Source of the DNA: Naegleria gruberi
Taxonomy: Eukaryota
Assembly: GCA_000004985.1 (NCBI GenBank)
Contig: GG738846.1
Length of the DNA stretch: 64,000 bases
Reading direction: 5' to 3' (one strand)
Below are positions 2,161 to 25,606 of the stretch, piece by piece. The notes below the pieces were generated by a model. The model was not told where the DNA came from. It did no database searches and saw only the letters and a program-made list of their open reading frames with translations. A program made the position numbers and the translations under genes. Position 1 is the first letter of the stretch. The number at the start of each line of letters is the position of its first letter.

Positions 2161-3090
2161 TTTGTGATTAACTTGAAATGTTATTAACGAACAATCAAAA
2201 AAGTCCAAGAAAACAAAGTCAAAAGTTACCGTAGGTACAATTTTAACAACCAATCCACTATTTTACACTCCTCCACAAAACGTACTAAATAATAACAAAA
2301 AATAATGATTGAGAATATCATAACCTTTGTATAATATAAACTCTAACACTTTTAATAATTGCAAATTTTTTTGAAATTTGCTTGTTGCTACTTGTTTTAT
2401 TGTTAAAAGCTTAACGCTTACTGCGATCTAATATTGGTTTGTTAGAGGTTATCTTTTTCCACTCCTTTGAGAATTTGGATAATAGAAGGTTGTAATGATA
2501 AAGAAGAATTTAATAATTTAATAGACCAACATGGAATTGTTTTACAAAGCATAACAATATTAAGTTTAGTTCAATACAAAATCTAATTCTAATAACTTCG
2601 TTTGAAAAAAAAGGGTAAATACTACAATGTTAACGATTTACTTAACATAGGTTCTGTTGTTGCTATTGAGTTGTTAATTAAAATTAATAATTAATGTTAT
2701 TGTTGTTTCGAATTTAACTAACAAACCTTGAATCCAAACTTTTGAATATTGGTATTCGTTTTTCCAATAAGAAAGCTATTATTATTATCAGAGATAATTG
2801 ATTGTTGCTTTTAAATTTTGGTGGTTTTGTAGTGCTGATAAATTTGTTTGTTGTAAAAGGCTATTTTTATAAGAAAATCCTTTCCATGACTTTGAAATAG
2901 TGGTTTCTTTTTTAAATTGTTTAACCAAGGACTTTGCTAATTCGTTATTTGTGGTAAAATCAAAAATTTGGTCTTCTTGATGATGTAATATATGAAAATA
3001 AATTGACATATTTTTTTAAATAAACTATTTTATCATTACCCAATCATGAAAGGCTAATGGGGAGAGATTATATTTTGGTGTGGATGAATT
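2161..3090. repeat. tandem repeat unit copy 1 (module A 2161-2565 + module B 2700-3090)
   Basis: Module B is >95% identical to 3915-4235. Module A matches 3531-3735 except for two internal deletions in copy 2. It contains the 21-mer AAGCTTAACGCTTACTGCGAT at 2408-2428. Confidence 0.8.
2788..3009 (-). CDS. short ORF of conserved-N-terminus family (MSIYFHILHHQEDQIF…), 73 aa
   Basis: True ATG at 3009..3007 in a ttaaaaaaATG context. It lies inside repeat module B. Divergent paralogs conserve ~50 aa (…ELAKSLVKQFKKETTISKSWKGFS) at the protein level. Confidence 0.3.
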   Translation of the reverse strand: MSIYFHILHHQEDQIFDFTTNNELAKSLVKQFKKETTISKSWKGFSYKNSLLQQTNLSALQNHQNLKATINYL

Positions 3091-3242
3091 ATAATCCAAT
3101 GGCCAAACAATGAATGATTTTATTGATTATTTGTTTGAAAGAGATAGTGAACTAATATTTAGAAATTGCAAGAGAGGTCACAAAATTCAAAAGACCTTAA
3201 TGAAATAATAATGAAGAATTTTCTTTTCCAAAAAGAAATAAT

Positions 3243-3491
3243 TTAATCTTTAAAAGAAAATAACTTCTCAATTTGTTTAACAAAAGCTCCAATAGAAGAG
3301 AAAATCAATATTGGTGGTGATAAATTTGTTTTTTGTTTATCAGAAAATCCATGCCATAATTTTCTAGCGGTTTCTTTTTTAAATTGTTCAACGAAAGACA
3401 TTACTAATTCGCTATCTATAATGCTACTAATAACAAAACCAAAAATTTGATCTTCCTGATGATATAATAAATGAAAAGAATAACTCGACAT
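3243..3491 (-). CDS. short ORF, divergent family member (MSSYSFHLLYHQEDQIFGF…), 82 aa
   Basis: It is ~60% aa identical to the 2788-3009 ORF over the first ~50 aa, while the DNA is clearly diverged. Maintenance of the frame suggests coding. Confidence 0.3.
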   Translation of the reverse strand: MSSYSFHLLYHQEDQIFGFVISSIIDSELVMSFVEQFKKETARKLWHGFSDKQKTNLSPPILIFSSIGAFVKQIEKLFSFKD

Positions 3492-3530
3492 TTTTTTTTA
3501 ACTTTTTAGAGTATATTAATATCCAAGCAC

Positions 3531-4235
3531 TCTGTGATTAACTTGAAATGATATTCACGAACCATCAAAAAAGTCCAAGAAAACAAAGTCAAAAGTAACC
3601 GTAAGTACAATTTTATCACTCCTCCACAAAAATAAACTCTAACAAAATTTGGATAATAGAAGGTTATAACAATAAAGAAGAATTTGATAATTTAATAGAC
3701 CAACATGGAATTGTTTTACAAAGCATAACATATATCTCCTTCTTGTACGTCTCTTTATCCGATTTATAAATACCTTTAAAATTACATTTGCATACTCATA
3801 TTACACATCTATTTATAAACAAGCTCACCAAATCAAAAAATGGTAATCATAGAATCAAACGTCCACACAAGGACTCAGATATTGGAATGAGTTTTATGGG
3901 ATATACTGAAATTACAATTGTTGTTTCGAATTCAACTAACAAACCTTTGAACATTGGTATTCGTTTTTCCAATAATAAATTTGTTTGTTGTAAAAGGCTA
4001 TTTTTATAAGAAAATCCTTTCCATGACTTTGAAATAGTGGTTTCTTTTTTAAATTGTTTAACCAAGGACTTCGCTAATTCGTTATTTGTAGTAAAATCAA
4101 AAAGTTGGTCTTTTTGATGATGTAATATATGAAAATAAATTGACATATTTTTTTAAATAAACTATTTTATCATTACCCAATCATGAAAGGCTAATGGGGG
4201 AGAGATTATATTTTGGTGTGGATAAATTATTATAA
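3531..4235. repeat. tandem repeat unit copy 2 (module A' 3531-3735 + module B' 3915-4235)
   Basis: Direct repeat of 2161-3090, offset ~1.37 kb. The B modules are near-identical, including non-coding flanks. Confidence 0.8.
3847..4146 (-). CDS. short ORF of conserved-N-terminus family, 99 aa (near-identical to 2788-3009 copy, different C-terminus)
   Basis: It lies in repeat module B'. It is identical to copy 1 for 57 aa and then diverges through an indel. Confidence 0.3.
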   Translation of the reverse strand: MSIYFHILHHQKDQLFDFTTNNELAKSLVKQFKKETTISKSWKGFSYKNSLLQQTNLLLEKRIPMFKGLLVEFETTIVISVYPIKLIPISESLCGRLIL

Positions 4236-4790
4236 TCAATACTAATTACAATAAATCAACAATAAATTTGGAATATTTTATTTTTGAAATAATTCATTTT
4301 TTAGTTTATTTTTGGATTTAGATTTTGGCTTTTTGGTTCAATTTGGCTTTTTGCCGATTTTTTATTCACCTATATCCAAAAACTGGTTTGGGATGGATTT
4401 TGGATATTAATATACTCTCTATTATTAATAAAATTAACATAAACAAACCATTGAATACTTCATTATTAATATCAGTGGATCTATTTACTTTTGTTTTCAC
4501 TATTGAAAAATTCTTTAATCAATTAGGAATTAAAAGTTTCTTAATTGTTCCACTTATATATTCGATGAACCCAGTGGTGTCCATTAATTCGAATAGAAGA
4601 ATGTGATCATTTAGATGTTCTTTAACAATATCAATGAATCAACTTTGATAGTATTTATTACTATTTTACAATTATCTGATTCAACAGTGGAATCCATTAA
4701 TAATTATAGTGTTAGAATTAGGAACATGAGGAATCTGATTTCAAGAAGAGGAAATAATTTCTTATTTGTCTATTTTCTAACATGCTTGAT

Positions 4791-5048
4791 TCAATAGAAT
4801 TCAAAGAGAATGAGGTTCAAACTCTCTCCAAGCTGCAAAGAAATTGGTTTGATAGGATGAAGAAACTTTTCTAGATAAGATGTTGACGGTATTGTAGAAA
4901 ATCTATTCCATAACTTTGAAATGGTGGTTTCTTTTTTAAATTGTTCAACCAAAGACATTGCTAATTCGTTATCTATAATGTTACTAATAATAAAACCAAA
5001 AATTTGATCTTTCTGATGATACAATAAATGAAAAGAATAACTCGACAT
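4791..5048 (-). CDS. short ORF, divergent family member (MSSYSFHLLYHQKDQIFGF…), 85 aa
   Basis: ATG at 5048..5046. The track ORF 4791-5159 starts upstream at a non-ATG codon. It conserves the …LVEQFKKETTISKLW… motif. Confidence 0.3.
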   Translation of the reverse strand: MSSYSFHLLYHQKDQIFGFIISNIIDNELAMSLVEQFKKETTISKLWNRFSTIPSTSYLEKFLHPIKPISLQLGESLNLILFEFY

Positions 5049-5073
5049 TTTTTTTTTAATAGTTTCAATATTA

Positions 5074-5811
5074 TTTTTAATTGTTACTTTCGGTAGAAAC
5101 ATTTGGATCATAATTGGTAAATTCAATATTTGCATTCTTTGTTCTGGAAAATTCACCATGCTTCACTTTTAATTTACATGTGGCATTAAAGTGGCATCCT
5201 TGTTGTGCCATTTTACAAACAACTCGAGCAATATTTTTACAATCATCAATACCAGAATGATGTTTGCCAAGGAGAGGTAATTTCAGTGCATTTAACATTG
5301 TCAACATGCCATTCACCTTTTCCATATTGTAAAACTTGGCAAATACATCCTTGACATTGCACCATTGTGTGAAATGAGATCCAATTAAGGAAATTGTTTG
5401 TTTCTCAAAGAAAACTTGATGTGGAATCATTGTTTTTAAGTCCCAATCTTTGAGAATTGTTAAAAACTAATCAAATTGAAAATATTTACCTCCACAAGTG
5501 GCCATCAGGATGTTATCTTTGGTTGGTTTTTCTCCTAAATGAGACATTAACCATTCATTGTGTCTCTTGAGTGCTTCTTCGAATGAAACTCCAGATTCGA
5601 CCATTTCTTGAGTAATTCCAGTCAATTTGGTGCATTCTTCATTAATTTTTGGAATTCTTCTTGTTTTTACATAGTTTTGAATTTCATCCACAACAACCAA
5701 TTGCTTTTCACTTTCAAATTTTAACAAGACTGATGGAAATTCAATAATTTCCATATCATAATTTCTATTAGTTTTACAATCGTCTGCAAAAACAGCTTCA
5801 AAATCCAACAC
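5074..5811 (-). CDS. ERI-1/3'hExo-like DEDDh 3'-5' exonuclease (2 exons seen: 5811..5490, 5447..5074; intron 5448..5489, 42 nt)
   Basis: Exo I motif VLDFEAV. Splicing restores the conserved TCGDWDLK Exo II motif (…MATCG|DWDLKTMIPHQ…). Exo III motif HSGIDDCKNIARV. Donor GTAAAT and acceptor AAG. Stop TAA at 5074-5076. The 5' end is unresolved: there is no in-frame ATG in the exon, and a candidate ATG at 6089..6087 is separated from it by a (TCT)n tract with an apparent frameshift. Confidence 0.6.
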
Positions 5812-6835: not shown

Positions 6836-7688
6836 TCAATTACATGTAAGTGAATAGTTGGGATTTTCAATCCAATCAAACAAGTGCTCATGTGGAAAGA
6901 TGGGATTTCCACAATTTGGATTTGAGAGTGTCTCGTTTGTGGTGAGTAACATTAAATCTAGAGATGGTGTATGTTTTGGGCTTCCCATTGCATTAAAGTG
7001 AAGCACCCTAACACAAGATGTGATGCAGTTTTGATGACCAGCATATTGCAAGTGTAGTCCACATTCCATTTCATGAATCCATGCTCTATTCGTTATTCTA
7101 TCGAGAGTATTGAGCACATCCTGATCAGCCAATAGTGTCTCTCCNNNNNNNNNNNNNNNNNNNNNNNNNNNNNNNNNNNNNNNNNNNNNNNNNNTACAGA
7201 TACTCCCAGGCATAGATTAGACCATCAAAACCATGAACCAAGAAGGTATCTGCATCCAAAAACAAGAAATGTGCCAATTTATGTTGAAAGAATTCAATCA
7301 GCTTTAACTTCTTGTTGGCAGAGGCAGCACTATAATGTGTCGATTTGGCGTCAACAGACAACTCGTTCGACTCATAGAATTTCAACGAAACTCTCTCACA
7401 AGAACCAAATCTCTTCACAATACAATCGATGGTATTGGTTGAATTCATGAAAACATGTAGAGTTACATGGTGGGGAGGCGAGGGACATGATGGAAGAGCT
7501 AACAATGGAGAGGCAACCTTTTCTGAGTTTTCATAGATTACCACAACATGCATGAGATGTCCAGCTCCAGCAGCACCAGGTTGTTTTGAAGAATATTTCT
7601 GGTGCGAGTAGAGAAAATGTCTTTCCAGGAGGAATGTTATGAGAGAGAAACAGAGAATTGGCAAAATGACTTTAAATTTATAATTCAT
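6836..7688 (-). CDS. type-II-membrane/secreted protein with DXD motif (possible glycosyltransferase); interrupted by 50-N assembly gap 7145-7194
   Basis: ATG at 7688..7686, followed by an N-terminal hydrophobic anchor (KVILPILCFSLITFLL) and an LFLDADTFLV motif. The same frame continues on both sides of the gap to a stop at 6836-6838. Confidence 0.4.
7145..7194. other. assembly gap (50 N)
   Basis: Run of N. Confidence 1.
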
Positions 7689-7989
7689 TATCGTAGTTTT
7701 GAATGATTTTTTTATATATACAACAACAACAACACACTTTGAAACTTGCCAATTACTATTGGGGTTTCATTTGGAAACAGGTGTTGGTCTAACAATGTTT
7801 GACACGACTAATCTATGGCAAATATGAGTTTTTTTGTTTTGTCATAATGTTGGAAATGGGTGTTTCTTCACGCCCTTATCATTTGTCAGGTGCTGGAAAT
7901 AAACCAAACCAAGCAATTTGATAAACCAAATAAAAACAGTCTCAGTTGACAAGTGATACTTGTTTTTTAATTATTTTCGTAGAGCATTC

Positions 7990-8300
7990 CACACTACTTG
8001 ACTTTAAAGAACCTGGTGTAGTAGCGAGTGCTAAACACAAAGCTGTTGGAAATACATCATTTCGCTGTTGACTTCATACAAACAGCATCCAAAGTGTTAG
8101 TCTAACTTGTTTTTGGTAATTTTAAGGTACAAATCAGGAGATTTTTGAAAGCTTGTTGAACAAAGTGGACTATCATATAAACATCAATAGAAAACCATGG
8201 TGAATGAGTGTTTATTACTCTACTAACTCCATGTTGTGATTTTCTAGCCACATTAGGCCTAGGATTGATGGTGTACCATGATACAAATACTTGAAGTGTT
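7990..8300 (+). pseudogene. degenerate partial inverted duplicate of the 5' coding region of the adjacent receptor-like kinase gene
   Basis: On the + strand, 8030-8066 (GAGTGCTAAACACAAAGCTGTTGGAAATA) and 8160-8300 align to the kinase sense sequence (ESAKHKAVGNN … IETSIENNGDCEYVAVSLLTSWPCCDFLAT, encoded on the minus strand near 11450-11760). Indels and stops disrupt the copy. The track ORFs 8102-8311(-) and 11447-11635(+) share this similarity as antisense reads. Confidence 0.55.
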
Positions 8301-8429
8301 TTTTTCCTCACATTTATTATGATTGGGAGACTTGAGATTCCAATACCGAACTCAAGAGCAAACGACCAATCAGGTTAGTAGAAACCACATATCCTTTGGA
8401 TGTAAACGTAATTGATGGTTATTAGATAT

Positions 8430-11400
8430 TTATATATTGAATTTGGAAAGAATATTTGCTAAACGATCTGCAACCTCATCAAACGAAGGTCTCTCATCTG
8501 GATTTTGATCCCAACAATCTTTCATCAAGTCAATATACTGATCCACAACTGAAACTAAAATGTCAATATCCATATATTTCTTGTCATCTTTCATATACTC
8601 CTTAATCCATACCATACTGATCTCTCTTCAACAGTAGAGAATGGAATTTTAGGTCTGAATCCTTTGGAAACTTTGAGTGGAATACTGAAACTATTCACAT
8701 CTGTTATCTCAGACTTTGAAAATCTATTAATTTTTTCAGAACTTTGATTAATGTATGGATTCTCCTCAAAAAGTAACTCATACATTACAATGCCAAAACT
8801 GTAGACGTCCAACTTGTTAGAAATTGAAATATTACTGTCACCAATCAATTCCTTAATAAATTAATTATGAATAATGTTAGTACAAATACTTACAGGCTTT
8901 AAAGACAAGTTATTATACTATTGTTCAATTAATTAGTATTACTTACAGCCATATAAAGGATACTTCCTAAATTGGTAGTCATATTGGTTGAATTGGTATT
9001 TCCAATCAATTTAGACAATCCAAAATCACAAACCTTGGGTTGCATATTCTCATCTAATAAAATGTTAGCACTTTTTAAATCTCTATGAATAATCATTTTC
9101 GGTTTCAAGTTATGTAAATAACTCAAACCGTTAGAAACTCCAAATAAAATACGAATCTTATCAATTAGTTTGATCATTTTTCTTTTCAATCGAAGTTCAC
9201 TAATTAACTTATCCAATGAACCACCTCCAAGATATTCCATAACCATTAACTTTCTTCGATCTGTGATACAAACACCAAAGAATTGTATAACATTTGGATG
9301 TTTCAAACTGTTGAGTAAAAGAACTTCTCTTTCAAATGTATCTTCCTCCTGTTCTATCTCATCATCTTCATTGTAATCTACACTTTTAATAGCAACACTA
9401 ACTTGCTTCCATCTGGCTTTGTAAACCTGACCGAAACCACCTGAACCTATTTTCTCAACTAATTCTAATTCTTCTATTGGAATCAAATAGGATAATTGCT
9501 TTCCTCTTTCATCCTCTAATTCTAATTCAATATCGAGAAGCTTTTTTTCCATTTCCATTTCTGTCTTTTTTCTCTTATTCCAATACCTGTTTTTGTAAAT
9601 ATAGAGAGCTACACTAACCAGTAAGAAAAATACAAGACATGAAACCAACACTCCAACTGGAACTAGAATTTTGTAAAGCAGATTTTCATCCACATTACAA
9701 AGCTTTCCTGAAAACCCATCATGACAACTACAATTATTAGGACCAATACAATCACCATATCCAGAGCAAGATTCCACACCAATATTTCCAAAACAGATAG
9801 GAGTTTCACATTGCTTGCCAACATACATTGGTAAACTGTTATTGAATTGTTTGCAAACACAATTGTCCTTACTAACACAATTGCCATTTCCTCCACAAAC
9901 CAATTGATCTGTTGATAGGGTAGATATTGAATAACATGTAGGAATGGAGCAATCTGGACCAGCACTTCCTGTTAGACAACTACAAGTATCATAGCCAACA
10001 CAAAATCCAGAACGTTGGCACACTGTGAAATTATTCGAATCAATACCAAAACAACTAGTATGTTCACAATTATCTCCAAAATAGTTCTCTTGACAAACAC
10101 AATGGTCTGTTGAAACACATTTGCCTCTTCCAGAGCAAACTTGATTTGATTTTGATAACACCTCATAGCACATGAAGGAAGAGCAATCATTTCCAAAATA
10201 ACTAGTCTTGCATTTGCAGGTATTATAATCTACACAATTCCCCCAACCACTACAAACAAATGATTGATTGGTTGACGGGATGTTAAAACACGTTGTAATG
10301 TTACAATGAGGTCCAAAATAGCTGTTATCACACTGGCACTTGTCTATTCCAATACATTTACCGTGATTACATCCAGATTCTAATTTACCAAAACAAGTAA
10401 ATTGAGAACAATTTGTATTACCATAACCATAATTGCACACACAATAATCTGAAGATTGACAAATGCCATGTCCAGAGCAAACACTCGTGTCATTATAAGC
10501 AATTCCAAAACAAGATTTGTAATTTTTAGAGCTGTAAGACTGAATCAATAGATTTGAACGAGGAGAACTATATGCATTTCCTGTAAGGTCAATTAACCTT
10601 CCATAATAAACATATGAAACAGCAACGTATGAATTGGTTGCAGATATAAAAACTGAGTTCACATTCGTACCATTCACACGCAAAATCCATTCTGCATCCC
10701 TTAAATTGTTATCCAATGATTGAACTATAATTTCATTGTTTCTACAAGAATCAAACCTTGCTGCAATAAAAACAAGTGACTCGGTACCTGTCACTGAATA
10801 AATTGTAGATTTACAAGAACTCAACTGATTTGAAAGCATTACATTTTTTGTTTCAAGTTTTGGTAAACTCAATTCCACACATTCTAAAATAGTATTTGAA
10901 CCACACAGAATAACAGATGCTGTTCTTCTAACTATATATGTGTTCACTGTTGTAGAAAGATAAGATAGAATAGTACCATTTTGATAAAGTAGCATGACAT
11001 AATTTCCATTTAAACCATTTTTCTCAATTTTGACCAAGTTATTATCTGAATCTCTCCATGTGGTTGATTCACCTTGTGTGAAAAATCCAGTTAACACTAA
11101 CAAATCCATTCCACTAACTGATACTGGGTATATTCCAGTTACTAGTCTTGGATTTTTTCCCATGTCTTCAGTTGCAAAAGTTGTATCAATACTTTGAACA
11201 ACCCATTGTCTACTCCAATCTTTCAACCTTAACATTAAAGCGAAGGTATTGTAAACTTTTCCAGCTGAATCTTCATCACGAAAAACTTCAACTCCAAAAC
11301 TATTCGAATCACCAACATATCCAGTTACAAACAAGGAAGATCTATCGAATGCCAAACTCAAAATATTACCATAATAAACAACCATTTGTTGAGCCCACAG

Positions 11401-11805
11401 TCTTTCACCACTCGTGGCATTGTAAATCATCAATCCTGGACCTCCTGTGGCAAGAAAATCACAACAGGGCCATGAAGTTAGCAGAGAAACAGCCACATAT
11501 TCACAATCACCATTATTTTCAATTGATGTTTCTATGGCAGTCAATGTCGTTCCACAAGCTTCCAAAATCTCTGATTTGTACCATAAAATTTCATTGGTGG
11601 TCAAATCCATCTTTACCAAAAACATGTTACACTGATCATTCTTATACTTTGGATGCTTGATAATAATAGTTGGCGAAATACCAATGGAATTTCTAAAAAC
11701 ACCTCCAAAGAATATATTATTTCCAACCGCTTTGTGTTTAGCACTCTCTATTGCTCCAGTTTCGTTCAAGGTGGTGAAAGGAAAGAGCAAAATGAACCAA
11801 ACCAT
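8430..11805 (-). CDS. receptor-like protein kinase: signal peptide, large extracellular region, ~10 Cys-rich EGF/laminin-type repeats, TM helix, kinase domain (3 exons: 11805..8947, 8851..8599, 8554..8430)
   Basis: ATG at 11805..11803 with a signal-like MVWFILLFPFTTL. Repeated CxxGxGxCxxxDxCxCxxxYxGxxC modules. TM helix LVPVGVLVSCLVFFLLVSVALYIY. Kinase motifs GSGGFGQVYKA, HRDLKSANILLD, DFGLSK and DVYSFGIVMYELL. Intron 1 is 8852..8946 (GTAAGT…TTATTAAG). Intron 2 is 8555..8598 (phase-1 GTATAT donor; acceptor TTTTAG, or CAG six nt later at 8549-8554). Splicing restores the subdomain XI motif …YIDLMKDCWDQNPDERPSF. TAA at 8430-8432. Confidence 0.65.
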
Positions 11806-11842
11806 TATTATGATTCGAAAGAGAGCTATTTCAAGAAAAAAA

Positions 11843-13288
11843 ATGAAACAATTTTTTGTGGTGATTCAAAGGCTTGCACTCACTAAACAACAGCCTGGTT
11901 CCAGTGATGAATTGGAAAATAGAGCAGCTGCAGCCTATCCCTTTCCGAATGCGATTGGAAATTTGTTGAGTCATATTAGTAATTTAAAATATGAATCTGA
12001 TCATAAACAATCACTTTCCGATTTTACAATACCTAATCATGATGAAAATATTATTGATGATGAATCAATTAAATTGCTAGATTTTTTGAATATTGCTCCG
12101 AATGAAATTGTTTGCCTGATGGCACTTTTTCTGGATAATCGAACATTGGCTGCACTTTTGAGATGCTCCTCTCATGTAAATGACATTGTTGATGATGATG
12201 ATCAATTTTGGCAAATGAAGTGTGAGTCAATGATTTTCAATAGGAAAATATTGTCATCCTATAGAAATAGTGTTGCAAGTTATAAGAAACTTTATGAAGA
12301 GTTTATAGCTAAAAAACCTTACTATCATTTGAAAGATTCTCTTGAAAATGTGTTTACTTTTTTAGAGACCAGCGACTGTTCAATACTTTCCTCATTTGAT
12401 TTTGGATTGGTTTATATAGACCCTAGAGAATGTGTAGAATTTGCTGAACTAGAGGACTCTAATTCATTACCAATTGAGGAACAGAGGAGTATTGATATTG
12501 TTAGTAATAATTTTGTAAAAATGTTTACAATGGGAATTAGGGAGGTTGGTGTTCTTGTGGACGTTTCAAATTGTAACGAGTTTAATGAATCAGAATATCA
12601 CTCTAAAATATTCCCATTCATTACAGGGATGGGTAAAAGAGTTGGATTCAAGGCCGTCAACTTGTTCTTTATCAATTACAAGACAAATAAGGGAATTAGT
12701 GAGCTCACTTCAACTATTGAAAAATCTTACAGACCACTTCCTAGTTATGTTCAATCAAAACCTTTGAGAGGCTTTATTCTTGATATTGAAAAACAACAAC
12801 CAAAAGTGGGAGGTACAGATTTGGTTGCTAAAGTTGCAATTCTATCTGGTGGTTTCAACAAAGAAATGATTCCAGAGCCTAGAATTATTGGAGATAATAG
12901 ATATATTACTTTTAATTCCTATTACACAACTCCTCTATATTGTGATGATATTAAGCTCACTGAACCTTTAAAGATTCTACGGGTTCACATTAACTTACCA
13001 AATTCCAAGTTTCCACTCAAGAGAGACGAAAGTCTATATATTGTACAAGAAACAAGCCCACCAAGGAAAACAAAAAGCTTTACATGCCAGGTAATTAGTC
13101 TAGGGTTGGAAATGAAAAAAAGTGACTTTGCACTTTGTGTTGGATACTCTTTCAAGATTCTTGTTAGGATTAAAAGGTTCATTTCGAAAATCCAAATTGT
13201 GGAAGACTCTGTTTCTTTGCAATTGGTGCACATATCAATTTGGACAATTATCAATCTGAATTGTCTGAAGACAAGATTAAAAATGTGA
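11843..13288 (+). CDS. F-box domain protein
   Basis: ATG at 11843 (aaaaaaaATG), only 37 bp from the divergent kinase ATG. F-box-like motif LLDFLNIAPNEIVCLMALFLDNRTLAALLRCSSHV. TGA at 13286-13288. The track ORF start at 11657 overlaps the kinase CDS and is not ATG-supported. Confidence 0.5.
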   Translation: MKQFFVVIQRLALTKQQPGSSDELENRAAAAYPFPNAIGNLLSHISNLKYESDHKQSLSDFTIPNHDENIIDDESIKLLDFLNIAPNEIVCLMALFLDNRTLAALLRCSSHVNDIVDDDDQFWQMKCESMIFNRKILSSYRNSVASYKKLYEEFIAKKPYYHLKDSLENVFTFLETSDCSILSSFDFGLVYIDPRECVEFAELEDSNSLPIEEQRSIDIVSNNFVKMFTMGIREVGVLVDVSNCNEFNESEYHSKIFPFITGMGKRVGFKAVNLFFINYKTNKGISELTSTIEKSYRPLPSYVQSKPLRGFILDIEKQQPKVGGTDLVAKVAILSGGFNKEMIPEPRIIGDNRYITFNSYYTTPLYCDDIKLTEPLKILRVHINLPNSKFPLKRDESLYIVQETSPPRKTKSFTCQVISLGLEMKKSDFALCVGYSFKILVRIKRFISKIQIVEDSVSLQLVHISIWTIINLNCLKTRLKM

Positions 13289-13417
13289 CTGAGTTCCCAC
13301 CTGGTGCAGTGGCTGTTTGTAAAGCAATCAGTTCAGATTGATCATTTTTGAAATTGAATATAACTTGAGTTTTACCTTAATCTTTTAGATTTAGTAAATA
13401 TTATTTATTTTACAAAA

Positions 13418-14107
13418 TTAATGAGCGAATTGATCATATTTAGCTCTAACAGCAACCATTTGATCAGGATACAAGTAGCCCAATAAACCTAAGGCTCCAT
13501 AGTAAGAAGCAGCCAAAACTGCAACAATAGATGCCAAAACTACTGGTTTCTTCAATTTATACCCAAGAGCGACATTCAATCCATAAATTGAGTGATAAAC
13601 TCCACTGGTCAATAAGAGTCCAAAATAACCCATTGCTGCACCTTGACCTATTTCCTTCTCAGCTGCAAAAGCAATGGAAGCAAAAGAACCAGCATATGAA
13701 TGCATAAAACGAGTTCCAAAAATGTGCATTGGAACCAAAGCCCCCAAAGCATATCCAGTGTATGTGTGTAACTTTTTAGCAAGTGATGTATTGGCTGTGG
13801 CTGTTGATTTTTTTCCACTCATAAAGATCAATGAATTGGCAATCATGTGGACTACCAATGGAGCAAATACAACCAAACCTTCCATCATCATATTTGGTCG
13901 ATAGATTCCTCTTGTCTTTTCCAAGACGAGATCATAAGTAGCAGGTGAAACGGAGGCTGAAACTGTAGTAGCTACGTGGAGAGAGGCAAAAACAGAAAAG
14001 GCTACACCAGACCAGTGTTGAAGAGCACGGAGGAAAGATGATGAACCTGTTGTTGTCGATGATGTTTTTGCTTCTGTGACGGATGCTGTCTTGTTGTCTT
14101 GGGTCAT
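13418..14107 (-). CDS. Gly/Ala-rich multi-pass membrane protein, function unknown (229 aa)
   Basis: ATG at 14107..14105 (MTQDNKTASV…). The upstream part of the track ORF is an AT-rich promoter read-through. It has 4-5 hydrophobic helices with GxxxG-like motifs. Codon usage is richer in GC3. Confidence 0.5.
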   Translation of the reverse strand: MTQDNKTASVTEAKTSSTTTGSSSFLRALQHWSGVAFSVFASLHVATTVSASVSPATYDLVLEKTRGIYRPNMMMEGLVVFAPLVVHMIANSLIFMSGKKSTATANTSLAKKLHTYTGYALGALVPMHIFGTRFMHSYAGSFASIAFAAEKEIGQGAAMGYFGLLLTSGVYHSIYGLNVALGYKLKKPVVLASIVAVLAASYYGALGLLGYLYPDQMVAVRAKYDQFAH

Positions 14108-15425: not shown

Positions 15426-17053
15426 ATGAGAAACCTTGATGACGATCTTCACAACAACAACCAACAACAACAAGATTTGTTCGAAGAGGTCTTGCAAATG
15501 TATGGTAGTAGTACGGAGTGTGAGGATTTAGTGTTAGATTTTACATCATCGGATACGAACGGATTGATGAAGAGAGTAGAGTCGTATCTTTCTAGTGGAA
15601 GCAGTTGGTATAAAAAGTTGAAGGTTGATAAGGATATGGAGAGTCTTGATTCGTTTGGAATTAATGAGGTTTCCGACGAATTGGATGATGAGAAGAGTGA
15701 TTGTTCCTTTACCAATAGATATGAAGAATCGTTGAATTGGGAAGTTGATAATTATGAGGACACATTTGATGATTATCAGAATGTAGCTAGAAAGGAAAAA
15801 CCTTGTTGTAAAAAGTTTTCTCCTCTCATCAGAAGAACAAACATTAATTTAGAGTTCCTAGATCCTTCTCAATGTATTGAGGCTTCTTGTATCGGCTGTT
15901 CTTCATTGGAGCGAAAGACTTTGATTGTTTCGACATTGTTCATTGCATGTGAATCATCATCTGATCATTCATCCACATCATCATCTGACTCTCATTTGAA
16001 TTCATCATCATCATTATCATGCAATGTATCTTATTCGGCGATGGACTCATCCAATAGAGTCCTTCTTGTACATTCAAAAGTAGACATCAACAAGGAGACT
16101 GAAAAGCAACGGCTGATAAGGTTGGCCCTATTATCGAGTTCCATTTTGTACATAGTTGTAAACAAGGAAATTGAGGAAGCTATAGCACATCAGATCATGT
16201 AAGTTTATCATTGTTTACTGATGCGATCATTTTTGTTCACAGATCTGAAATTTTGAAAATATCTTCAAGTTTAACAGACGCTTTTAGAGCATCATCTACA
16301 GGTTCTTTATTAAGGATTCCGGATATTAGAGTACTTTTTTGTAGATCTGACTTGGTGTTGGATCAGTAAGTTTTTTATTTATTTCAGCATTGTTAAAAGT
16401 CAAAAAACTATAAATATATGATAACAATTCATCTAAATAGAGGATTGGCAAATAGAGTTGAGTTTTTAAATTTTGGAGAGAACACTGATTGGAATGAATG
16501 GATTGATGAAACATCTCCTATCATTAAGCAAATAATAGAAGGATCATTGAGAGAATTGGATACTGAGCATTCATTAAGGCTGTTCAGCATGGTGTCAAAC
16601 TATGTACACGACTATTTTGGAAATTTTAATAGTATTTATAACTTGATTAGTTCATTTACAAACTTTGACTGTTGTAATACTGATTTTATAATAGCTCAAA
16701 CAGCCATTACAACAGCCAAGATTATGACCAAGGTGAAAGAATTGGCAACTAAAAAGGAAATTGAATACAAGGACACAATCTCCAAGATTGAAACTGAAAG
16801 TAGGACCATCATCAGAAAAAAGAATAAGGAAATTGAAAAGCTTAAAAAACAACTGAACGAATTCAAAAAGAACTTCTACTCTACAGTTGACTTGACCGAG
16901 AAGGCAGAAAAGAAGCAGGAAACCAAGATTATTGATCTTTCATCGCATCTCATAGTTAATTCAAAACATGATTCAATGAATAGAAATGATCAATGTGGAC
17001 CAAAATCCATCCTACTACTTCCACCCTTACGTTTATGTTATCGACAAGTTTAG
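15426..17053 (+). CDS. hypothetical acidic/Ser-rich protein with coiled-coil C-terminal region (3 exons: 15426..16198, 16243..16365, 16441..17053)
   Basis: ATG at 15426. Intron 1 is 16199..16242 (44 nt, GTAAGT…TTTTGTTCACAG). Intron 2 is 16366..16440 (75 nt, GTAAGT…ATCTAAATAG). Both are phase-consistent and join three track ORFs into one frame. The terminal stop at 17051-17053 overlaps the MORN gene start, so the 3' end is uncertain. Confidence 0.45.
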
Positions 17054-17906
17054 AGTTTATGATGAGTTGAGAAAATCAAAGAATTATAGAGTTAAGAGAT
17101 ATAAGGATGGATCCAAATATGAGGGTGAATATGTCAATCATGCCAGAGAGGGACTGGGAACCTTTTTGAATGAGTTTGGAAATATCTATACAGGTTTCTG
17201 GCAGGATAACGAAAGACATGGATATGGAATGCAAGAATATAATGAAGGTAACAAGTATTGTGGACAGTGGAAGAAGGACGCAAAGCACGGCTATGGTACT
17301 TCATGGTATAAGGATGGAGGTGTTTTTACTGGAGAATATCTGGAAGGATTGAGAACTGGAAAAGGAATCTACACGTATCCGAGTGGAAATCAATATGATG
17401 GTGAATGGAAGAATGGTGTAAGAAATGGATTTGGTATCTATCGTTATTGTTCTGGAGAGGAATATTATGGAGATTGGGTTGATGATTTGAGAACTGGATT
17501 CGGAACCTATATTGGAGCTGATGGATCAAAATACGAGGGTGAATGGTCACAAGGATTGAAACATGGTGAAGGTACCTTGGTAAATGGAAATGAAAATTAT
17601 AAGGGATCATTTGTGAGTGGTAAAAAACATGGAAAGGGAAAGATTGTGTTCAATTGTTCCAAAGGTGGAGAAGATCCTCTCTCTTTTGAGGGATCGTTTT
17701 TGGAAGATGAAATGGAAGGAGATGGAAAGTACTTTTTAAAGAGTGGTGATGTTATTCATGTAATTGTATCAAAAGGAGTTGAAAAGATAATAACACGAGA
17801 GGTGTGCAAGTTCAAAACCTTCCTTTTAAATGCATGCGCTAAGAATCAAGATTATAACAAGGGATTTCACTTTGTGGATATCCTTATCAAAAGTAATAAT
17901 TTATAA
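16986..17906 (+). CDS. MORN-repeat protein (≥8 MORN motifs)
   Basis: Repeated Y-x-G-x-W-x-x-G-x-x-H-G-x-G motifs (YEGEYVNHAREGLGTF; YTGFWQDNERHGYGMQ; YCGQWKKDAKHGYGTS …). ATG at 16986 and TAA at 17904-17906. The N-terminus overlaps the previous gene's last exon in another frame. Confidence 0.55.
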   Translation: MINVDQNPSYYFHPYVYVIDKFRVYDELRKSKNYRVKRYKDGSKYEGEYVNHAREGLGTFLNEFGNIYTGFWQDNERHGYGMQEYNEGNKYCGQWKKDAKHGYGTSWYKDGGVFTGEYLEGLRTGKGIYTYPSGNQYDGEWKNGVRNGFGIYRYCSGEEYYGDWVDDLRTGFGTYIGADGSKYEGEWSQGLKHGEGTLVNGNENYKGSFVSGKKHGKGKIVFNCSKGGEDPLSFEGSFLEDEMEGDGKYFLKSGDVIHVIVSKGVEKIITREVCKFKTFLLNACAKNQDYNKGFHFVDILIKSNNL

Positions 17907-17919
17907 TAATAATAATAAT

Positions 17920-20647
17920 TTATTCAGTAACTACTTCTATTTCATTATTTGTTTGCTCGTCATCATCGAAAGGTAAATCAATAGCCAAACTCAAACAATT
18001 TCTTGCTATAATACTCCACAAATATGAAACAAAGAAAGGTTCAGTATCTCCATCTTCAGAGAAGTGTGAAGGCAAAAATTGAATAACTTTCAAGTGTTGC
18101 TCAGCTCTACTAGTCGACCAAAACTGAGATGCTTTATGAATGCACTCTAAGTAGCTCTCTGAACTCCACATTTTGGATTGTTGTGCATTATCCACATATT
18201 CATCAAATACATCATTGGAAATCTCTCTTGATGGTGACATGTGAGATTGTCCAACCTTGTCATTAATCATTTGTTTTCCTTCAATATTAATGATATTGGA
18301 AATTTGCACATCAAAATATTCTACTATTGTCTTTAAATTATGTACATAATCAGGGAATAATGACAATTCCTCAAGTCTCTTGACCACACGTCTCTGATAT
18401 AATAATTCATAAATTAGTCTCAAATTTTTCCTCAATCCACCCTCCTTGTTATTCACCAAAATACAATTTATAGTTTCTAGAGCAAACTTGAGTAAGGAAA
18501 AATGGGTTTCCTTGTCCTCTTCAGTGGATGATGGCAACATTCGTATCTTTTCAAATTTAATGGTCAACAATCTTGTAAGTGTGACCAATCTTTGAGCTGT
18601 ATACGTGTGCATGTTAGAAAAGTATGGACCAGAGTTGGAAATTATTGCAAGGCAAGACCTATTCAAAAACATATCCTTTTTGTGTGAAATATTATAGTGA
18701 ACAACAGAGATGAGTACAGCAACAATCAAACTTCCAAGATGAATTTCATCTAGAATTCTCTCAGTAAACCACGGTACGGAACTGATGACTTGCTTGTGGA
18801 TATTGATCATGAATGATGTGTCTTGAGTGAGAAGTGTGAGTACTACCAGAAGAGTATAAATGTGATTTGGCTTGTCATTCTTTGAATGGTAAATCTTGTG
18901 GAGGAGTGGTAACAAGATTGTCTCTGAGTCTGATTTTGAAAGAACAAACTCTCTGAATGATTTGTTGTCGTGTAACAAACTATAGGTGAGGAGTGTGCAT
19001 TCCTCCTCTTCAAAATCTCTCACAATAGAGTTGAATATCTTTTCAAATGATATTCCATTGTTGCTCTTATCGTCTGACTTGACTTTATATTCTGAATAGT
19101 CGTTAAAGCTCCACGAATTAAATTGAGAAATGATCACATCATCCAAGTTGGTTAGATTTGTAAAGTGTGAAAGGTATGGATTAAGTACTCGGTGATCATT
19201 CTTCCCATAAAATATCAATAACAGAAGATTCATTATACTTCTCCTACCAAGGAGTTCAGGAAGCATTTCACTGAGTTTCTCGCTATATTCAATTTCCTTT
19301 GTTTCCTTATAAAAGATATTTCTATAGGCATTATAGGGCAAGAAGAGGATTGAGGAAGCAGTCTCTCCCAATTTGGAAAAGATTTTTTGGAGTGTAGTTC
19401 TAATTGAAACTTGGAATGGTGATGCCTCCTTCTTTGTAATTCTATATGTTATATGGTTTTGCAAGAGGGCATGTATCAATCTATTTGGATCAAATGATTT
19501 ACAACTTGATTTGAACTGTTTTCTAATTCTCATAATGGAAATTGCCTCCTGCAGGAAGATATTATGCTCTCTGCTTGATTCTTGAATTTTACCAATGGTA
19601 TCATGTACTTCTTCCTCTTCCTGATCCTCATTAATGACGCCTCCATAGAGAGAGGTACTAAATAATATTAAAAGACAGTTCATAACCTCCAAATGCAGTA
19701 AATAATTATGAATTGTCACTCGATTCTCACTCAAAAACAATAAAATAGTCTCTATGAATATTCTCACCACTAGAGGTGAGTGAATTCTATTCTTTCCTTC
19801 CATTTCAAATTCTGGATCTCTTTCCTCATCAATATAACAATAATTTTCAATGAGATTGGCAGACAATTTGAAACCTGGTGGTAAATTATACAAGTGTGTT
19901 TTTAAATACTCTGCATTATTTTCACAATCCATTATAATTCTATGAATGAGATATCTAAAGATTACAAAGGCATTGCAAGTGACAAGAATTGCCTCTCTAT
20001 TCACTGTGGATAAATCCTCTTCAGTGTTTGACTCATCCGACTTTCCCTCTTCCATTCTCAAAATTAACCACTGTGATAATTGTAACATGAAGGCACTCAA
20101 TGATCCTGTCTGTAAATTATTTCCATCTATTCATTTGATTATTATCCACAACAAGTTGTTGTTATCATTATGTAATTAATTAAAATAATATTATATATTG
20201 TCAATATTACAAAGATTTTGAATCAAAATTAATGAATTAACTCTCTGATCAGAGAGAGATGTAATAATTTTAATACCTACGTAAAAGTGATGCATATTTA
20301 AACAAGTGTTTATCCAAAATATCAGGATGAAGTAAAGACAATGGAAAGTAATCTCCGATATTGAGTACAGATGAAGAAGAAACAGCTCGAGCTACAAGCC
20401 CAATTCCACTACTGGTGGATGATTTCTCACCACCATCGGATAATGTACCATTGTTTTGTTGTGGTTGTTGTTGATTGGAAAACGTTGATTGAGAAATAAT
20501 AGTTTGAGAAATGGATAAGAGAGACTGATACGCAAATTTACTCCAAAATTCATCATGATTTCTAATAGGCTCTGCTCCACACAAATCATTTAGAAAATCA
20601 TTTTGGCCAATAGTATTTTCAACCGATGATGAAAAGGTTCCTCCCAT
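17920..20647 (-). CDS. dymeclin (DYM) homolog, 2 exons (20647..20281, 20126..17920)
   Basis: The N-terminus MGGTFSSS…NDFLNDLCGAEPIRNHDEFWSKF parallels the dymeclin N-myristoylated MGxxxS…DPFWNQLL start. The intron is 20127..20280 (154 nt, GTAGGT…GAATAG, phase 1) and joins in frame. The total is ~857 aa, including a Q-rich insertion. TAA at 17920-17922. Confidence 0.55.
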
Positions 20648-20864
20648 ATTATTATTATTATTATTATTATAATTGTAAAAAGTCTATATTAAATGTATTC
20701 TGCTTGATGATGATATTATTGTGTTTTTTAAAAAGCTTTCCGAAAGATCTTGTTGTGTGTGATGAAGAATTTGATTTTTTTTTCTTTTGAAACAAAAAGG
20801 AAGCAAGTTTTTTAATTTTCAATATCAATTAAGAAATTGACCTAGTGCTCAAAAATGGGTAATC

Positions 20865-21938
20865 TCAATGAATTTTATTATAGGCATTCAATAAAAGGAA
20901 TTGGTAGAGATTGGATAGATGATTTTGCCAATTTGGATCTGATTTGGTGATGGATTCAATGTTGAGTTTGGAAAGGATGGATTTGAGGATTTCTTTCTCT
21001 TTAAAACATTGTGGGGAGAGTATGATATTGGAAATTTGCTGTTCAATGAATTGTTTCAGTATTATTTGAGTTTCATTATACTTTTCAATTAAAAGATCAT
21101 TATTGAAATATCCAAATTTGTAAATGAGATAGTTGTAGAATTTTTGTTGAGAGAGTGGTTTTCCTTTGTGTAATTTTTCATACAGTATTTGAATGAATTG
21201 ATCCAAATCCAAGAGGTACATTTCATTTTGTGTTTTAATGTATTTGAATATTTGCATTGGATGAACAGAATGATCGAGAAATAAACTCTGTTCCAATATT
21301 TCAGATGAATCATACTGACCAATACTATTCAAAATTTCCGAATAATTCAATTTACAATGATGAGAGAATTGGTGGGTATTCCGAGTCAAGATGAGTCTAA
21401 TCATTTTAGGCATTGCTTGTTGATACTTGTTAATATTCCTCAAATGTCCAAATGATTGAAAATATTTAACACATTGAGTGAGATAAATTACATAATTATT
21501 TACATAGTCCGTTTTAACGCCCAATCTATTAATTATACTTTGAATGTATGAATTGAGAATGTTAATTTTCAATTGCTTGTACTTTTTAAAATTATTATAA
21601 TTGGTTTTACACTCTCTACAGATAAAGTAATTTAAAACTTTAGATTTGAGCTCAGAATTTTCATAGACGAGATATTTTACATTTTCATATACATTTCCAT
21701 ACTTGATAGATAAGGTTAAATATTTATACAATTGTACATCATTATTTACAATAAAGTATTGATTATATACACATTGACAATGATCCAAAATGATTAATAA
21801 TTGATCAACTCGATTCTTGTGACTAATTTTCGAATAAATTGTCAAATTTTCAATTGAATCCGATTCTAAATCTTCAATTTTAACTTGATAAATATTTCCA
21901 TATAATATATCCACTGTTTTTGAATATTCTTGTATCAT
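20865..21938 (-). CDS. hypothetical Asn/Lys/Tyr/Ile-rich protein (357 aa)
   Basis: True ATG at 21938..21936 and an intact ORF. It is low-complexity with no recognisable domain. ORF 21985-22263(-) might be a 5' exon joined by a weak GTTAAA donor. Confidence 0.35.
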   Translation of the reverse strand: MIQEYSKTVDILYGNIYQVKIEDLESDSIENLTIYSKISHKNRVDQLLIILDHCQCVYNQYFIVNNDVQLYKYLTLSIKYGNVYENVKYLVYENSELKSKVLNYFICRECKTNYNNFKKYKQLKINILNSYIQSIINRLGVKTDYVNNYVIYLTQCVKYFQSFGHLRNINKYQQAMPKMIRLILTRNTHQFSHHCKLNYSEILNSIGQYDSSEILEQSLFLDHSVHPMQIFKYIKTQNEMYLLDLDQFIQILYEKLHKGKPLSQQKFYNYLIYKFGYFNNDLLIEKYNETQIILKQFIEQQISNIILSPQCFKEKEILKSILSKLNIESITKSDPNWQNHLSNLYQFLLLNAYNKIH

Positions 21939-21984
21939 TATTTGTTTTCTTTTTTCAATTTCCGAGAGTATGAAATTTTGATTT

Positions 21985-22263
21985 TTAACCTTGTCTGCCT
22001 CCTCTCTCCTCTTTCAAATAATATTCCAAATAATCCATCAAATTATTCATCAATTCCGAGAGTTTTTCCAAATCACGATTAAAATATGACTTTAGGAATT
22101 TACTTTTTTTCAATTCATCATAGAAAGCAAGAGCTTGCTCTCGTGTTTTTAATTTTCTTTTCTTTATCAATAAATATAATGATGATGATTGTTGACTCGT
22201 AAAGTGATCATGTTTGTTCCGATAAAAATTGGTTTCAAAATTGGTTTTCAACTCTGTTTGCAT
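21985..22263 (-). CDS. small hypothetical ORF (92 aa) or 5' exon of the downstream gene
   Basis: True ATG at 22263..22261. It is basic and helical. A possible in-frame junction to 21938-ORF exists at a non-consensus donor. Confidence 0.25.
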   Translation of the reverse strand: MQTELKTNFETNFYRNKHDHFTSQQSSSLYLLIKKRKLKTREQALAFYDELKKSKFLKSYFNRDLEKLSELMNNLMDYLEYYLKEERGGRQG

Positions 22264-25556: not shown

Positions 25557-25606
25557 NNNNNNNNNNNNNNNNNNNNNNNNNNNNNNNNNNNNNNNNNNNN
25601 NNNNNN
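25557..25606. other. assembly gap (50 N)
   Basis: Run of N. Confidence 1.

What the first reader, a model, noticed from the sequence alone, without database searches (positions are those of the whole stretch)
7990..8300. Degenerate inverted copy of the receptor-kinase 5' coding region located just 3' of the same gene
About 300 bp on the + strand align, with indels and stops, to the sense sequence of the kinase N-terminus (ESAKHKAVGNN…WPCCDFLAT). The kinase itself is on the minus strand 3 kb away. An inverted partial duplicate next to its parent gene could form antisense or hairpin transcripts, or it may mark a past rearrangement or gene-conversion donor from a paralogous kinase.
Basis: seen in the sequence. 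Interest (0 to 1): 0.5.

Follow-up and report, generated by a model that had tools for sequence, protein, structure and literature searches.

The report
Dead inverted fragment of neighbouring kinase gene
A 279-bp, stop-riddled, inverted copy of the start of a Naegleria gruberi receptor-kinase gene sits 150 bp past that gene's end; it looks like an ordinary decaying leftover of a local DNA duplication, not a working element.

Summary
Window 8002-8280 (+) is a degenerate inverted copy of codons 13-130 of the adjacent receptor-kinase gene. That gene lies on the minus strand at 8430-11805, and the parent segment is 11418-11770. The match has blastn E=2e-28 and an alignment score about 70 SD above shuffles. 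Identity is about 80-85% in aligned columns. About 88 parental bases are missing, there are small insertions, and three stops fall in the parental frame. Homology ends abruptly on both sides.

Differences are spread evenly over codon positions. Using Naegleria lovaniensis and one other homologue as outgroups, 15 of 18 polarisable codon changes lie on the fragment's lineage. These include losses of conserved Cys, Trp, Gly and Pro.

The window is Naegleria gruberi. The fragment carries N. gruberi-specific residues and matches the neighbouring gene better than any homologue I could retrieve. The rest of the N. gruberi genome could not be searched.

It is best read as a neutrally decaying, DNA-level partial duplicate. 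The window holds other local partial duplicates, one of them inverted. In N. lovaniensis the homologous kinase sits in a full-length convergent inverted duplication. A hairpin or antisense role is untested and disfavoured, because the longest perfect complementarity is 18 nt. Interest is low.

The parts
8002..8280 (+). Degenerate inverted pseudogene fragment. It is a copy of codons 13-130 of the adjacent kinase gene, with three in-frame stops, about 88 parental bases missing and small insertions.
   Evidence: blastn E=2.4e-28 and 1.6e-11; alignments; inverted blocks I1, I2, I3, I6, I7, I13; translation with stops; no + strand ORF of 50 aa or more here.
11418..11770 (-). Parent segment: nt 36-388 of the kinase CDS, covering the end of the signal peptide and the start of the orphan ectodomain.
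   Evidence: Same alignments. It retains the outgroup residue at 15 of 18 polarisable differences.
8430..11805 (-). Receptor-kinase gene. Exon 1 is 8947-11805, the intron is 8852-8946 (GTAAGT...TACTAAC...AG) and exon 2 is 8430-8851. The protein has an orphan N-terminal domain, EGF/teneurin-type repeats, a TM helix and a protein kinase domain.
   Evidence: ORF list; Pfam Pkinase 6e-40 and EGF_TEN 9e-21; exon junction agrees with N. lovaniensis P0001 (...YMA|ELIG...).
8607..8617 (-). 5-bp tandem duplication GTATG|GTATG inside exon 2. It shifts the reading frame, so as assembled the kinase ORF stops at 8591-8593 and loses subdomain XI.
   Evidence: Exon 2 is 422 nt (mod 3 = 2). Homologues P0001, P0009 and P0002 switch from frame -3 to -2 exactly here, and removing 5 bp restores ...EERSVWIKEYMKDD....
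8281..8429 (.). 149-bp spacer between the fragment and the kinase stop codon. It has no homology to the gene and holds an AATAAA hexamer at 8313-8318 on the minus strand.
   Evidence: Flank alignment score equals the shuffle mean; hexamer positions; sequence.
7689..8001 (.). The rest of the 741-bp intergenic region, up to the ATG (7688) of the next minus-strand gene. It has no homology to the kinase gene or its upstream region.
   Evidence: ORF 7125-7688; flank alignment score equals the shuffle mean; no Rfam family at a meaningful score.

Best explanation
The element is a non-functional, neutrally decaying partial duplicate (a pseudogene fragment) of the neighbouring Naegleria gruberi receptor-kinase gene.

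A 353-bp piece of exon 1 (codons 13-130) was copied at the DNA level and now lies in inverted orientation in the intergenic spacer, 150 bp downstream of the gene's stop codon. It has no start codon and no promoter. The copying happened after the N. gruberi lineage separated from N. lovaniensis. Since then the copy has accumulated about 15-20% substitutions, roughly 88 bp of deletions, small insertions and three stops. The parent's N-terminus stayed under purifying selection over the same period.

Shown here: the homology, the sharp boundaries, the disablements, and the direction of change.

Inferred: the mechanism. I favour, at about 2:1, a single event that produced a fragment from the start. 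Candidates are a replication template switch or a templated insertion during double-strand-break repair that copied a nearby sequence in inverted orientation. The less favoured alternative is a full-length convergent duplicate later trimmed by deletions.

The lack of function is also an inference.
For: - **Unique, highly significant match.** The neighbouring gene is the only match in the window.
- **Abrupt boundaries.** The left flank 7700-8001 and the right flank 8281-8430 score exactly like shuffles against the gene and its upstream region.
- **No coding capacity.** There are three stops and frame-breaking indels in the parental frame, and no + strand ORF of 50 aa or more.
- **Even spread of differences.** Counts over codon positions are 16/12/14.
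- **Direction of change.** With P0001, P0009 and P0002 as outgroups, 15 changes lie on the fragment lineage, 3 on the parent lineage and 7 are unpolarised. The fragment changes include a conserved Cys to Ser, Trp to Arg, Gly to Leu, Pro to Leu and three stops.
- **N. gruberi-specific residues.** The fragment shares SAKHKAVGN, YKSEIL and PCCDFLAT with the neighbour, and scores better against it than against any retrievable homologue.
- **Not an assembly artefact.** 15-20% divergence with many indels is incompatible with misplaced reads.
- **Local partial duplicates are common here.** There is a second inverted gene fragment (50853-50970 against 52830-52946, 84%). There are also direct partial copies at 2838-5061 and 24180-24915.
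- **Family precedent.** The same kinase family forms a convergent inverted duplication in N. lovaniensis (3.83-kb arms, 96.8% identity).
- **No known RNA family.** Rfam gives nothing at a meaningful score.
Against: - No expression or small-RNA data could be consulted, so absence of function is inferred, not shown.
- The rest of the N. gruberi genome could not be searched. A closer, unannotated paralogue as the true source is therefore not excluded.
- The parent gene itself carries a 5-bp frameshift in the assembly. The whole locus may therefore be decaying, which complicates the picture of a functional parent and a dead copy.
- The two arms would pair strongly if they were ever on one RNA.
Confidence: 0.8

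Rival explanations
1. The fragment is the relic of a full-length convergent (tail-to-tail) inverted duplication of the whole kinase gene, like the one still present in N. lovaniensis. In N. gruberi, deletions then removed most of the left copy, the spacer and the left copy's promoter and first 12 codons.
For: N. lovaniensis locus L001 carries the homologous gene as a convergent inverted pair. The arms are 9592-13418 (+) and 22821-18992 (-), 96.8% identical, with a 5.6-kb spacer. The N. gruberi fragment and gene have the same convergent orientation. The fragment itself shows a strong deletion bias, with about 88 bp lost.
Against: This route needs at least three events (a duplication plus two large deletions), where a single partial copy would do. 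There is no trace of any other part of the gene, of its promoter or of a spacer on either side of the fragment (tblastn). L001 is not syntenic with the window. The fragment is far closer to its neighbour than the species are to each other, so the two duplications are independent unless long-term gene conversion is invoked.
Confidence: 0.2
2. The fragment is the footprint of an inversion made by staggered breaks. Under this model the kinase gene once ran on the + strand from about 8002. The segment 8002-11770 was then inverted, and the stretch between the staggered nicks was duplicated, leaving inverted copies at both ends of the inverted segment.
For: The geometry fits exactly. The two copies are inverted, they lie at the two ends of the segment that holds the rest of the gene, and both have sharp outer borders.
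Against: The present start codon and first 12 codons (11771-11805) would have to come from unrelated DNA at the far breakpoint. However, similarity to N. lovaniensis P0001 (YTTFNNTG against FTTLNETG) already begins one or two codons outside the duplicated block. No syntenic outgroup locus was found with which to test orientation.
Confidence: 0.07
3. The inverted fragment is functional at the RNA level. Read-through of the kinase transcript, or a + strand transcript across the fragment, would pair with the kinase 5' coding region. The resulting hairpin or antisense duplex would feed an RNAi pathway or otherwise down-regulate the kinase.
For: Cofolding the kinase 5' CDS with minus-strand RNA across the fragment forms 229 intermolecular pairs and gains -143 kcal/mol, against -9 +/- 5 for shuffles. 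The fragment lies only 150 bp past the stop codon on the same transcribed strand. Naegleria genomes encode candidate Dicer and Argonaute homologues (PMC13315211).
Against: The longest perfectly complementary run is 18 nt, so no 21-nt siRNA from the fragment would match the mRNA perfectly. The duplex has 15-20% mismatches and is broken by indels of 31, 24, 10, 9 and 6 nt. The substitutions look like unconstrained decay. An AATAAA hexamer lies between the stop codon and the fragment. RNAi has not been demonstrated in Naegleria. Similar fragments occur elsewhere in the window.
Confidence: 0.05
4. The fragment derives from a different, closer kinase paralogue elsewhere in the N. gruberi genome, or has exchanged sequence with one, rather than from the neighbouring gene.
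For: N. lovaniensis has at least three family members, so N. gruberi might have more than one. The neighbouring gene itself seems absent from the N. gruberi proteins held in the database, so unannotated paralogues could exist.
Against: No N. gruberi protein of this family was found in two searches of the protein collections, although N. gruberi proteins are present there. The window holds no other copy. Adjacency to an 80-85% identical source is the simplest account.
Confidence: 0.1

Closest known systems
Duplicated (non-processed) pseudogene fragments, or 'gene relics', produced by local segmental duplication or by templated insertion during replication or repair. This category is named from established knowledge.
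   Same: There is partial homology to a nearby parent gene. There are stops and frameshifts. No start codon or promoter was copied. Substitutions are spread evenly over codon positions, and the changes are concentrated on the copy's lineage.
   Different: Nothing essential differs. The inverted orientation and the position directly behind the parent gene's 3' end are a less common geometry. The mechanism of origin is not established.
Convergent inverted duplication of the homologous kinase gene in Naegleria lovaniensis (PYSW02000013.1, locus L001; protein C9374_001521 = P0001).
   Same: It involves the same gene family and the same tail-to-tail orientation of the two copies.
   Different: In N. 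lovaniensis the arms are complete genes plus about 400 bp upstream (3.83 kb). They are 96.8% identical, both appear to have an intact first exon, and a 5.6-kb spacer with two genes separates them. In N. gruberi one arm is a 279-bp wreck 150 bp from the other gene's stop codon. The two loci are not syntenic.
Hairpin-RNA and pseudogene-derived endo-siRNA loci (Drosophila hpRNA genes; mouse oocyte pseudogene/parent-gene inverted repeats). These are recalled from the literature and were not re-read here.
   Same: An inverted copy of part of a gene lies close to, or on the same transcript as, its parent and could form dsRNA.
   Different: Known loci have long, near-perfect arms and documented small RNAs. 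Here the arms are 80-85% identical with large indels, no perfect run exceeds 18 nt, and no small-RNA or transcript evidence exists.
Inverted duplications at inversion breakpoints (the staggered-break model described for Drosophila inversions). This is recalled from the literature.
   Same: Two inverted copies of a short stretch bracket a segment of a few kb.
   Different: An ancestral opposite orientation could not be shown, and the gene's first 12 codons lie outside the duplicated block.

Membership tests
Duplicated pseudogene fragment | Significant homology to a protein-coding parent gene | tested here: met
   blastn E=2.4e-28; score 186 against 21.5 +/- 2.3 for shuffles; tblastn 60% identity over 52 aa.
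Duplicated pseudogene fragment | Disabling lesions (stops, frameshifts, truncation) and no intact ORF | tested here: met
   Three stops in the parental frame, multiple indels that are not multiples of three, and no ATG or promoter copied. No + strand ORF of 50 aa or more.
Duplicated pseudogene fragment | Relaxed constraint on the copy relative to the parent | tested here: met
   Differences are 16/12/14 over codon positions. 15 of 18 polarisable codon changes lie on the fragment lineage, several at invariant residues. The sample is small.
Duplicated pseudogene fragment | DNA-level rather than retroposed (processed) origin | tested here: inconclusive
   The fragment lies wholly within exon 1, so loss of the intron cannot be scored. 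It has no poly(A) tract at its 3' border. A 6-bp ACTTGA occurs at 7996-8001 and 8289-8294, but that is within chance.
Hairpin-RNA / endo-siRNA inverted-repeat locus | Long, near-perfect inverted repeat able to give perfectly matching ~21-nt small RNAs | tested here: not met
   80-85% identity, about 88 nt of deletions, and a longest perfect run of 18 nt.
Hairpin-RNA / endo-siRNA inverted-repeat locus | Both arms transcribed (on one RNA or as sense/antisense) and small RNAs detected | not testable with these tools
   No RNA-seq or small-RNA data are available. An AATAAA hexamer at 8313-8318 (minus strand) precedes the fragment, which is only suggestive.
Hairpin-RNA / endo-siRNA inverted-repeat locus | Organism has RNAi machinery | not tested
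   Literature only: candidate Dicer and Argonaute homologues in N. fowleri, with RNAi not demonstrated (PMC13315211).
Full-length inverted (palindromic) gene duplication as in N. lovaniensis L001 | Both arms span the whole gene | tested here: not met
   Only 279 bp of homology. The flanks score like shuffles against the rest of the gene, and there are no further tblastn hits.
Inversion-breakpoint duplication (staggered breaks) | Inverted copies exactly at both ends of a segment whose orientation is reversed relative to an outgroup | tested here: inconclusive
   The geometry fits. The outgroup loci L001-L003 share no flanking genes with the window, so orientation cannot be compared.
Transposable element with terminal inverted repeats | TIRs at the ends of a mobile unit present in several copies, not derived from host coding sequence | tested here: not met
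   One arm is the conserved coding sequence of the kinase, homologous to N. lovaniensis proteins. There are no further copies in the window.

The most novel reading that the evidence does not exclude
The kinase gene and the inverted copy of its own 5' coding region form a natural hairpin unit. Read-through kinase transcripts would fold back on themselves (229 predicted pairs) and be destroyed or processed by the putative Naegleria Dicer/Argonaute system. This would be an endogenous, pseudogene-derived self-silencing device in a heterolobosean, a group in which RNAi has not yet been demonstrated.
Probability: 0.04. Interest if true: 0.55.

Novelty: new member of a known kind. Interest (0 to 1): 0.13.

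Why it matters
The practical value is small. The fragment should be annotated as a pseudogene fragment so that it is not mistaken for an exon or a regulatory element.

Three observations together suggest that short-range partial and inverted duplication is an active mode of genome change in Naegleria:
- this fragment;
- the other local partial duplicates in the window;
- the full-length inverted duplication of the same family in N. lovaniensis.

The fragment also dates a window in which the parent's ectodomain stayed under selection, with only 3 polarised changes against 15 in the copy. That contrasts with the 5-bp frameshift now seen in the parent's kinase domain.

Only if small RNAs were found here would it become a useful entry point to RNAi in Naegleria.

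Tried and rejected
1. **Searching the rest of the source genome for paralogues was not possible.**
 - The window is N. gruberi (100% match to P0017).
 - Six exact look-ups of window proteins or P0017 found no contig on record.
 - The DNA collections available cover only prokaryotes, viruses and metagenomes.
2. **A word-index protein search with the 431-aa N-terminal domain returned nothing.** The exhaustive HMMER search then found only two real relatives, P0001 (51%) and P0002 (39%). It also found weak repeat matches to bacterial proteins.
3. **A synteny test of orientation failed.** The three homologous loci L001-L003 share no flanking genes with the window.
4. **No similar fragments were found near the homologous genes in L001-L003.**
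5. **Homology does not extend beyond the fragment.** Both flanks score at the shuffle mean.
6. **A known RNA family was rejected.** The only Rfam hit is a chance match at E=0.47 outside the fragment.
7. **The 15-nt direct match 7897-7911 / 11790-11804 was judged to be chance.** About five such matches are expected in 7 kb of AT-rich DNA (my estimate).
8. **A flanking 6-bp ACTTGA as a target-site duplication is within chance.**
9. **Rescuing the parent's frameshift by a cryptic intron was not adopted.**
 - Many GT..AG combinations are mechanically possible, for example 8598-8549.
 - All of them delete residues conserved in every homologue.
10. **An assembly artefact was rejected,** because the copies differ by 15-20% and by many indels.

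Full report
**What is there**

The window is AT-rich (32% G+C) eukaryotic DNA with three N-runs. An FtsY/SRP-receptor-like ORF at 42567-43529 is 100% identical over its whole length to a 'predicted protein [Naegleria gruberi]' (P0017). The window is therefore Naegleria gruberi.

A receptor-type protein kinase gene lies on the minus strand:
- exon 1 at 11805-8947
- a 95-nt intron at 8946-8852 (GTAAGT...TACTAAC...AG)
- exon 2 at 8851-8430

Pfam finds EGF/teneurin-type repeats and a protein kinase domain behind a roughly 430-aa N-terminal domain with no family. The next gene on the same strand starts at 7688. The finding therefore lies in a 741-bp intergenic spacer, 150 bp past the kinase stop codon and 314 bp before the next ATG.

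**Checking the observation**

blastn of 7900-8420 against the whole window finds only one other place, the 5' end of the kinase gene on the opposite strand. The hits are 175 bp at 75.4% (E=2.4e-28), 53 bp at 84.9% (E=1.6e-11) and a colinear 21-bp block. The repeat finder independently lists six colinear inverted blocks at 80-95% (I1, I2, I3, I6, I7, I13).

The local alignment score is 186, against 21.5 +/- 2.3 for shuffles. The core is 8002-8280 (+), matching 11770-11418, which is nt 36-388 of the CDS, codons 13-130. A global alignment gives 225 identical of 265 aligned columns (84.9%, JC distance 0.17). The fragment is 279 bp against 353 bp in the parent. The main deletions are about 31, 24, 10, 9 and 6 bp, and there are a few small insertions.

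Read in the parental frame, the fragment has three stops and several frameshifts.

**Borders**

Neither flank continues the homology. The left flank 7700-8001 was compared with the kinase upstream region and with the whole gene. The right flank 8281-8430 was compared with the continuation of the CDS and with the rest of the gene. All of these score at the mean of shuffles. The copy therefore has no start codon, no promoter and no other part of the gene. A tblastn of the kinase against the window finds nothing else of this family.

**Which copy is decaying, and from what did it come?**

The exhaustive HMMER search with the N-terminal domain found only two real relatives:
- P0001, 51% identical, from N. 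lovaniensis
- P0002, 39% identical, from assembly GCA_041937235.1

The full-length search added a second N. lovaniensis paralogue, P0009. I used these three as outgroups and translated the fragment codon by codon in the parental register. The results were:

| Category | Codons |
|---|---|
| Identical between fragment and parent | 57 |
| Changed on the fragment lineage | 15 |
| Changed on the parent lineage | 3 |
| Not polarisable | 7 |

The 15 fragment-lineage changes include a conserved Cys to Ser, Trp to Arg, Gly to Leu, Pro to Leu and the three stops. Nucleotide differences are spread evenly over codon positions (16/12/14). The fragment is therefore the unconstrained copy, and the parent's ectodomain remained under selection after the duplication.

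The fragment also shares residues with its neighbour that differ in all outgroups (SAKHKAVGN, YKSEIL, PCCDFLAT). It scores 52+30 bits against the neighbour, 38 against P0001 and 25 against P0002. The duplication is thus younger than the N. gruberi / N. lovaniensis split, and the neighbour is the best available source.

The caveat is that the N. gruberi genome itself could not be searched. No N. gruberi protein of this family, not even the neighbour itself, appears in the protein collections, although N. gruberi proteins are there. An unannotated closer paralogue therefore cannot be excluded.

**Context from relatives and from the rest of the window**

In N. lovaniensis (L001, PYSW02000013.1) the homologous gene is present as a complete convergent inverted duplication. 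The arms are 9592-13418 (+) and 22821-18992 (-), 3.83 kb long and 96.8% identical, with a 5.6-kb spacer. The orientation of the two copies is the same as in N. gruberi. However, the loci share no flanking genes, and the N. gruberi fragment is far closer to its neighbour than the species are to each other. The events are therefore independent unless long-lasting gene conversion is assumed. No short fragments accompany the genes in L001-L003.

Within the window, other local partial duplicates exist:
- a second inverted gene fragment (50853-50970 against 52830-52946, 84% over 120 bp, inside ORF 52573-53280)
- four direct partial copies at 2838-5061
- a direct pair at 24180-24915

Short-range partial duplication is thus commonplace in this stretch of genome.

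**How it most likely arose and what it does**

The simplest account is one event that copied about 350 bp of nearby sequence in inverted orientation into the spacer. Candidates are a template switch during replication or a templated insertion during break repair. Neutral decay with a deletion bias followed.

Two alternative origins remain open:
- A full-length inverted duplicate trimmed by deletions needs more events and has left no other trace.
- An inversion with staggered breaks fits the geometry. It would require the present first 12 codons to be foreign, yet similarity to P0001 already begins just outside the duplicated block.

I find no evidence for function. The two arms would pair strongly if they were on one RNA: 229 pairs and a gain of -143 kcal/mol, against -9 +/- 5 for shuffles. 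That is a trivial consequence of homology. The longest perfect run is 18 nt, large indels interrupt the duplex, and an AATAAA hexamer (8313-8318, minus strand) lies between the stop codon and the fragment. Naegleria has candidate Dicer and Argonaute genes, but RNAi has not been demonstrated there (PMC13315211). Rfam gives nothing.

**A complication worth recording**

As assembled, the parent gene is itself out of frame. Exon 2 is 422 nt long, and a tandem GTATG|GTATG at 8617-8607 shifts the frame exactly where all three homologues read ...LWIQEYMKED... straight through. This is either an assembly error or a very recent disabling mutation. The low number of parent-lineage changes shows the gene was functional for most of the time since the fragment arose.

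**Verdict**

The finding is a real but ordinary feature: a dead, partial, inverted duplicate of the neighbouring kinase gene. It is a new instance of a well-known kind and of low interest. The hairpin or siRNA reading has roughly a 4-5% chance and could be tested cheaply with existing or new RNA-seq and small-RNA data.

Noticed in passing
window 8607-8617 (minus strand sense GTATGGTATGG), inside kinase exon 2 (8430-8851): A 5-bp tandem duplication puts the last ~52 codons of the kinase domain (subdomain XI, ...CWDQNPDERPSF...) out of frame. As assembled, the ORF stops at 8591-8593. The homologues P0001, P0009 and P0002 read straight through. It is either an assembly error or a recent pseudogenising mutation of the 'parent' gene.
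   Followed up: partly
window 50853-50970 (+) and 52830-52946: A second inverted gene fragment. 120 bp are 84% identical to the reverse complement of part of ORF 52573-53280 (+), 1.9 kb away. This is the same kind of object as the finding.
   Followed up: partly
window 2838-3095, 3342-3499, 3975-4233, 4896-5061 (minus-strand ORFs 2788-3009, 3243-3491, 3847-4146, 4791-5159): Four direct partial copies (72-97% identical), each with a short ATG ORF beginning MS(I/S)Y(F/S)H(I/L)L(H/Y)HQ(E/K)DQIF... They lie just 3' of an RNase_T/ERI1-like exonuclease gene (5077-5811). They could be a small tandem gene family or repeated exon debris, and they have no Pfam match.
   Followed up: no
window 24180-24389 and 24704-24915: A direct repeat of about 210 bp at 93% identity, 0.5 kb apart. 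It was not examined.
   Followed up: no
L001 (N. lovaniensis PYSW02000013.1) 9592-13418 (+) and 18992-22821 (-): The homologous receptor-kinase gene is present as a complete convergent inverted duplication. The arms are 3.83 kb and 96.8% identical, starting about 400 bp upstream of the ATG and ending 9 bp past the stop. The 5.6-kb spacer carries two paralogous small genes (16291-17108 and 17771-18618, 66% identical).
   Followed up: partly
window 10513-11805 (minus), kinase N-terminal ectodomain (aa 1-431): This domain has no Pfam family. In 1.8 billion representative proteins it has only two clear relatives, from N. lovaniensis and assembly GCA_041937235.1. Residues ~119-175 weakly resemble a repeated motif (GGVVLFDA.GERL...V.SVAF.P.G) in bacterial repeat proteins (E 1e-7 to 1e-3), which hints at a beta-propeller-like fold. 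The kinase also seems to be missing from the N. gruberi proteins held in the databases searched.
   Followed up: no
L002 (GCA_041937235.1 JBEGDK010000091.1) 9393-9579 and 13544-13861: Direct repeats (78-84% identical) flank the homologous kinase gene, one upstream of its start and one downstream of its end. The annotated protein there (P0002, 566 aa) is a truncated model, since tblastn shows an uninterrupted ~968-aa first exon at 9821-12700.
   Followed up: no
window 7145-7194, 25557-25606, 28067-29235: Assembly gaps (N runs). The first interrupts the gene immediately downstream of the finding (6836-7688, minus strand), a type II membrane protein with a DxD-like motif and no Pfam match.
   Followed up: no
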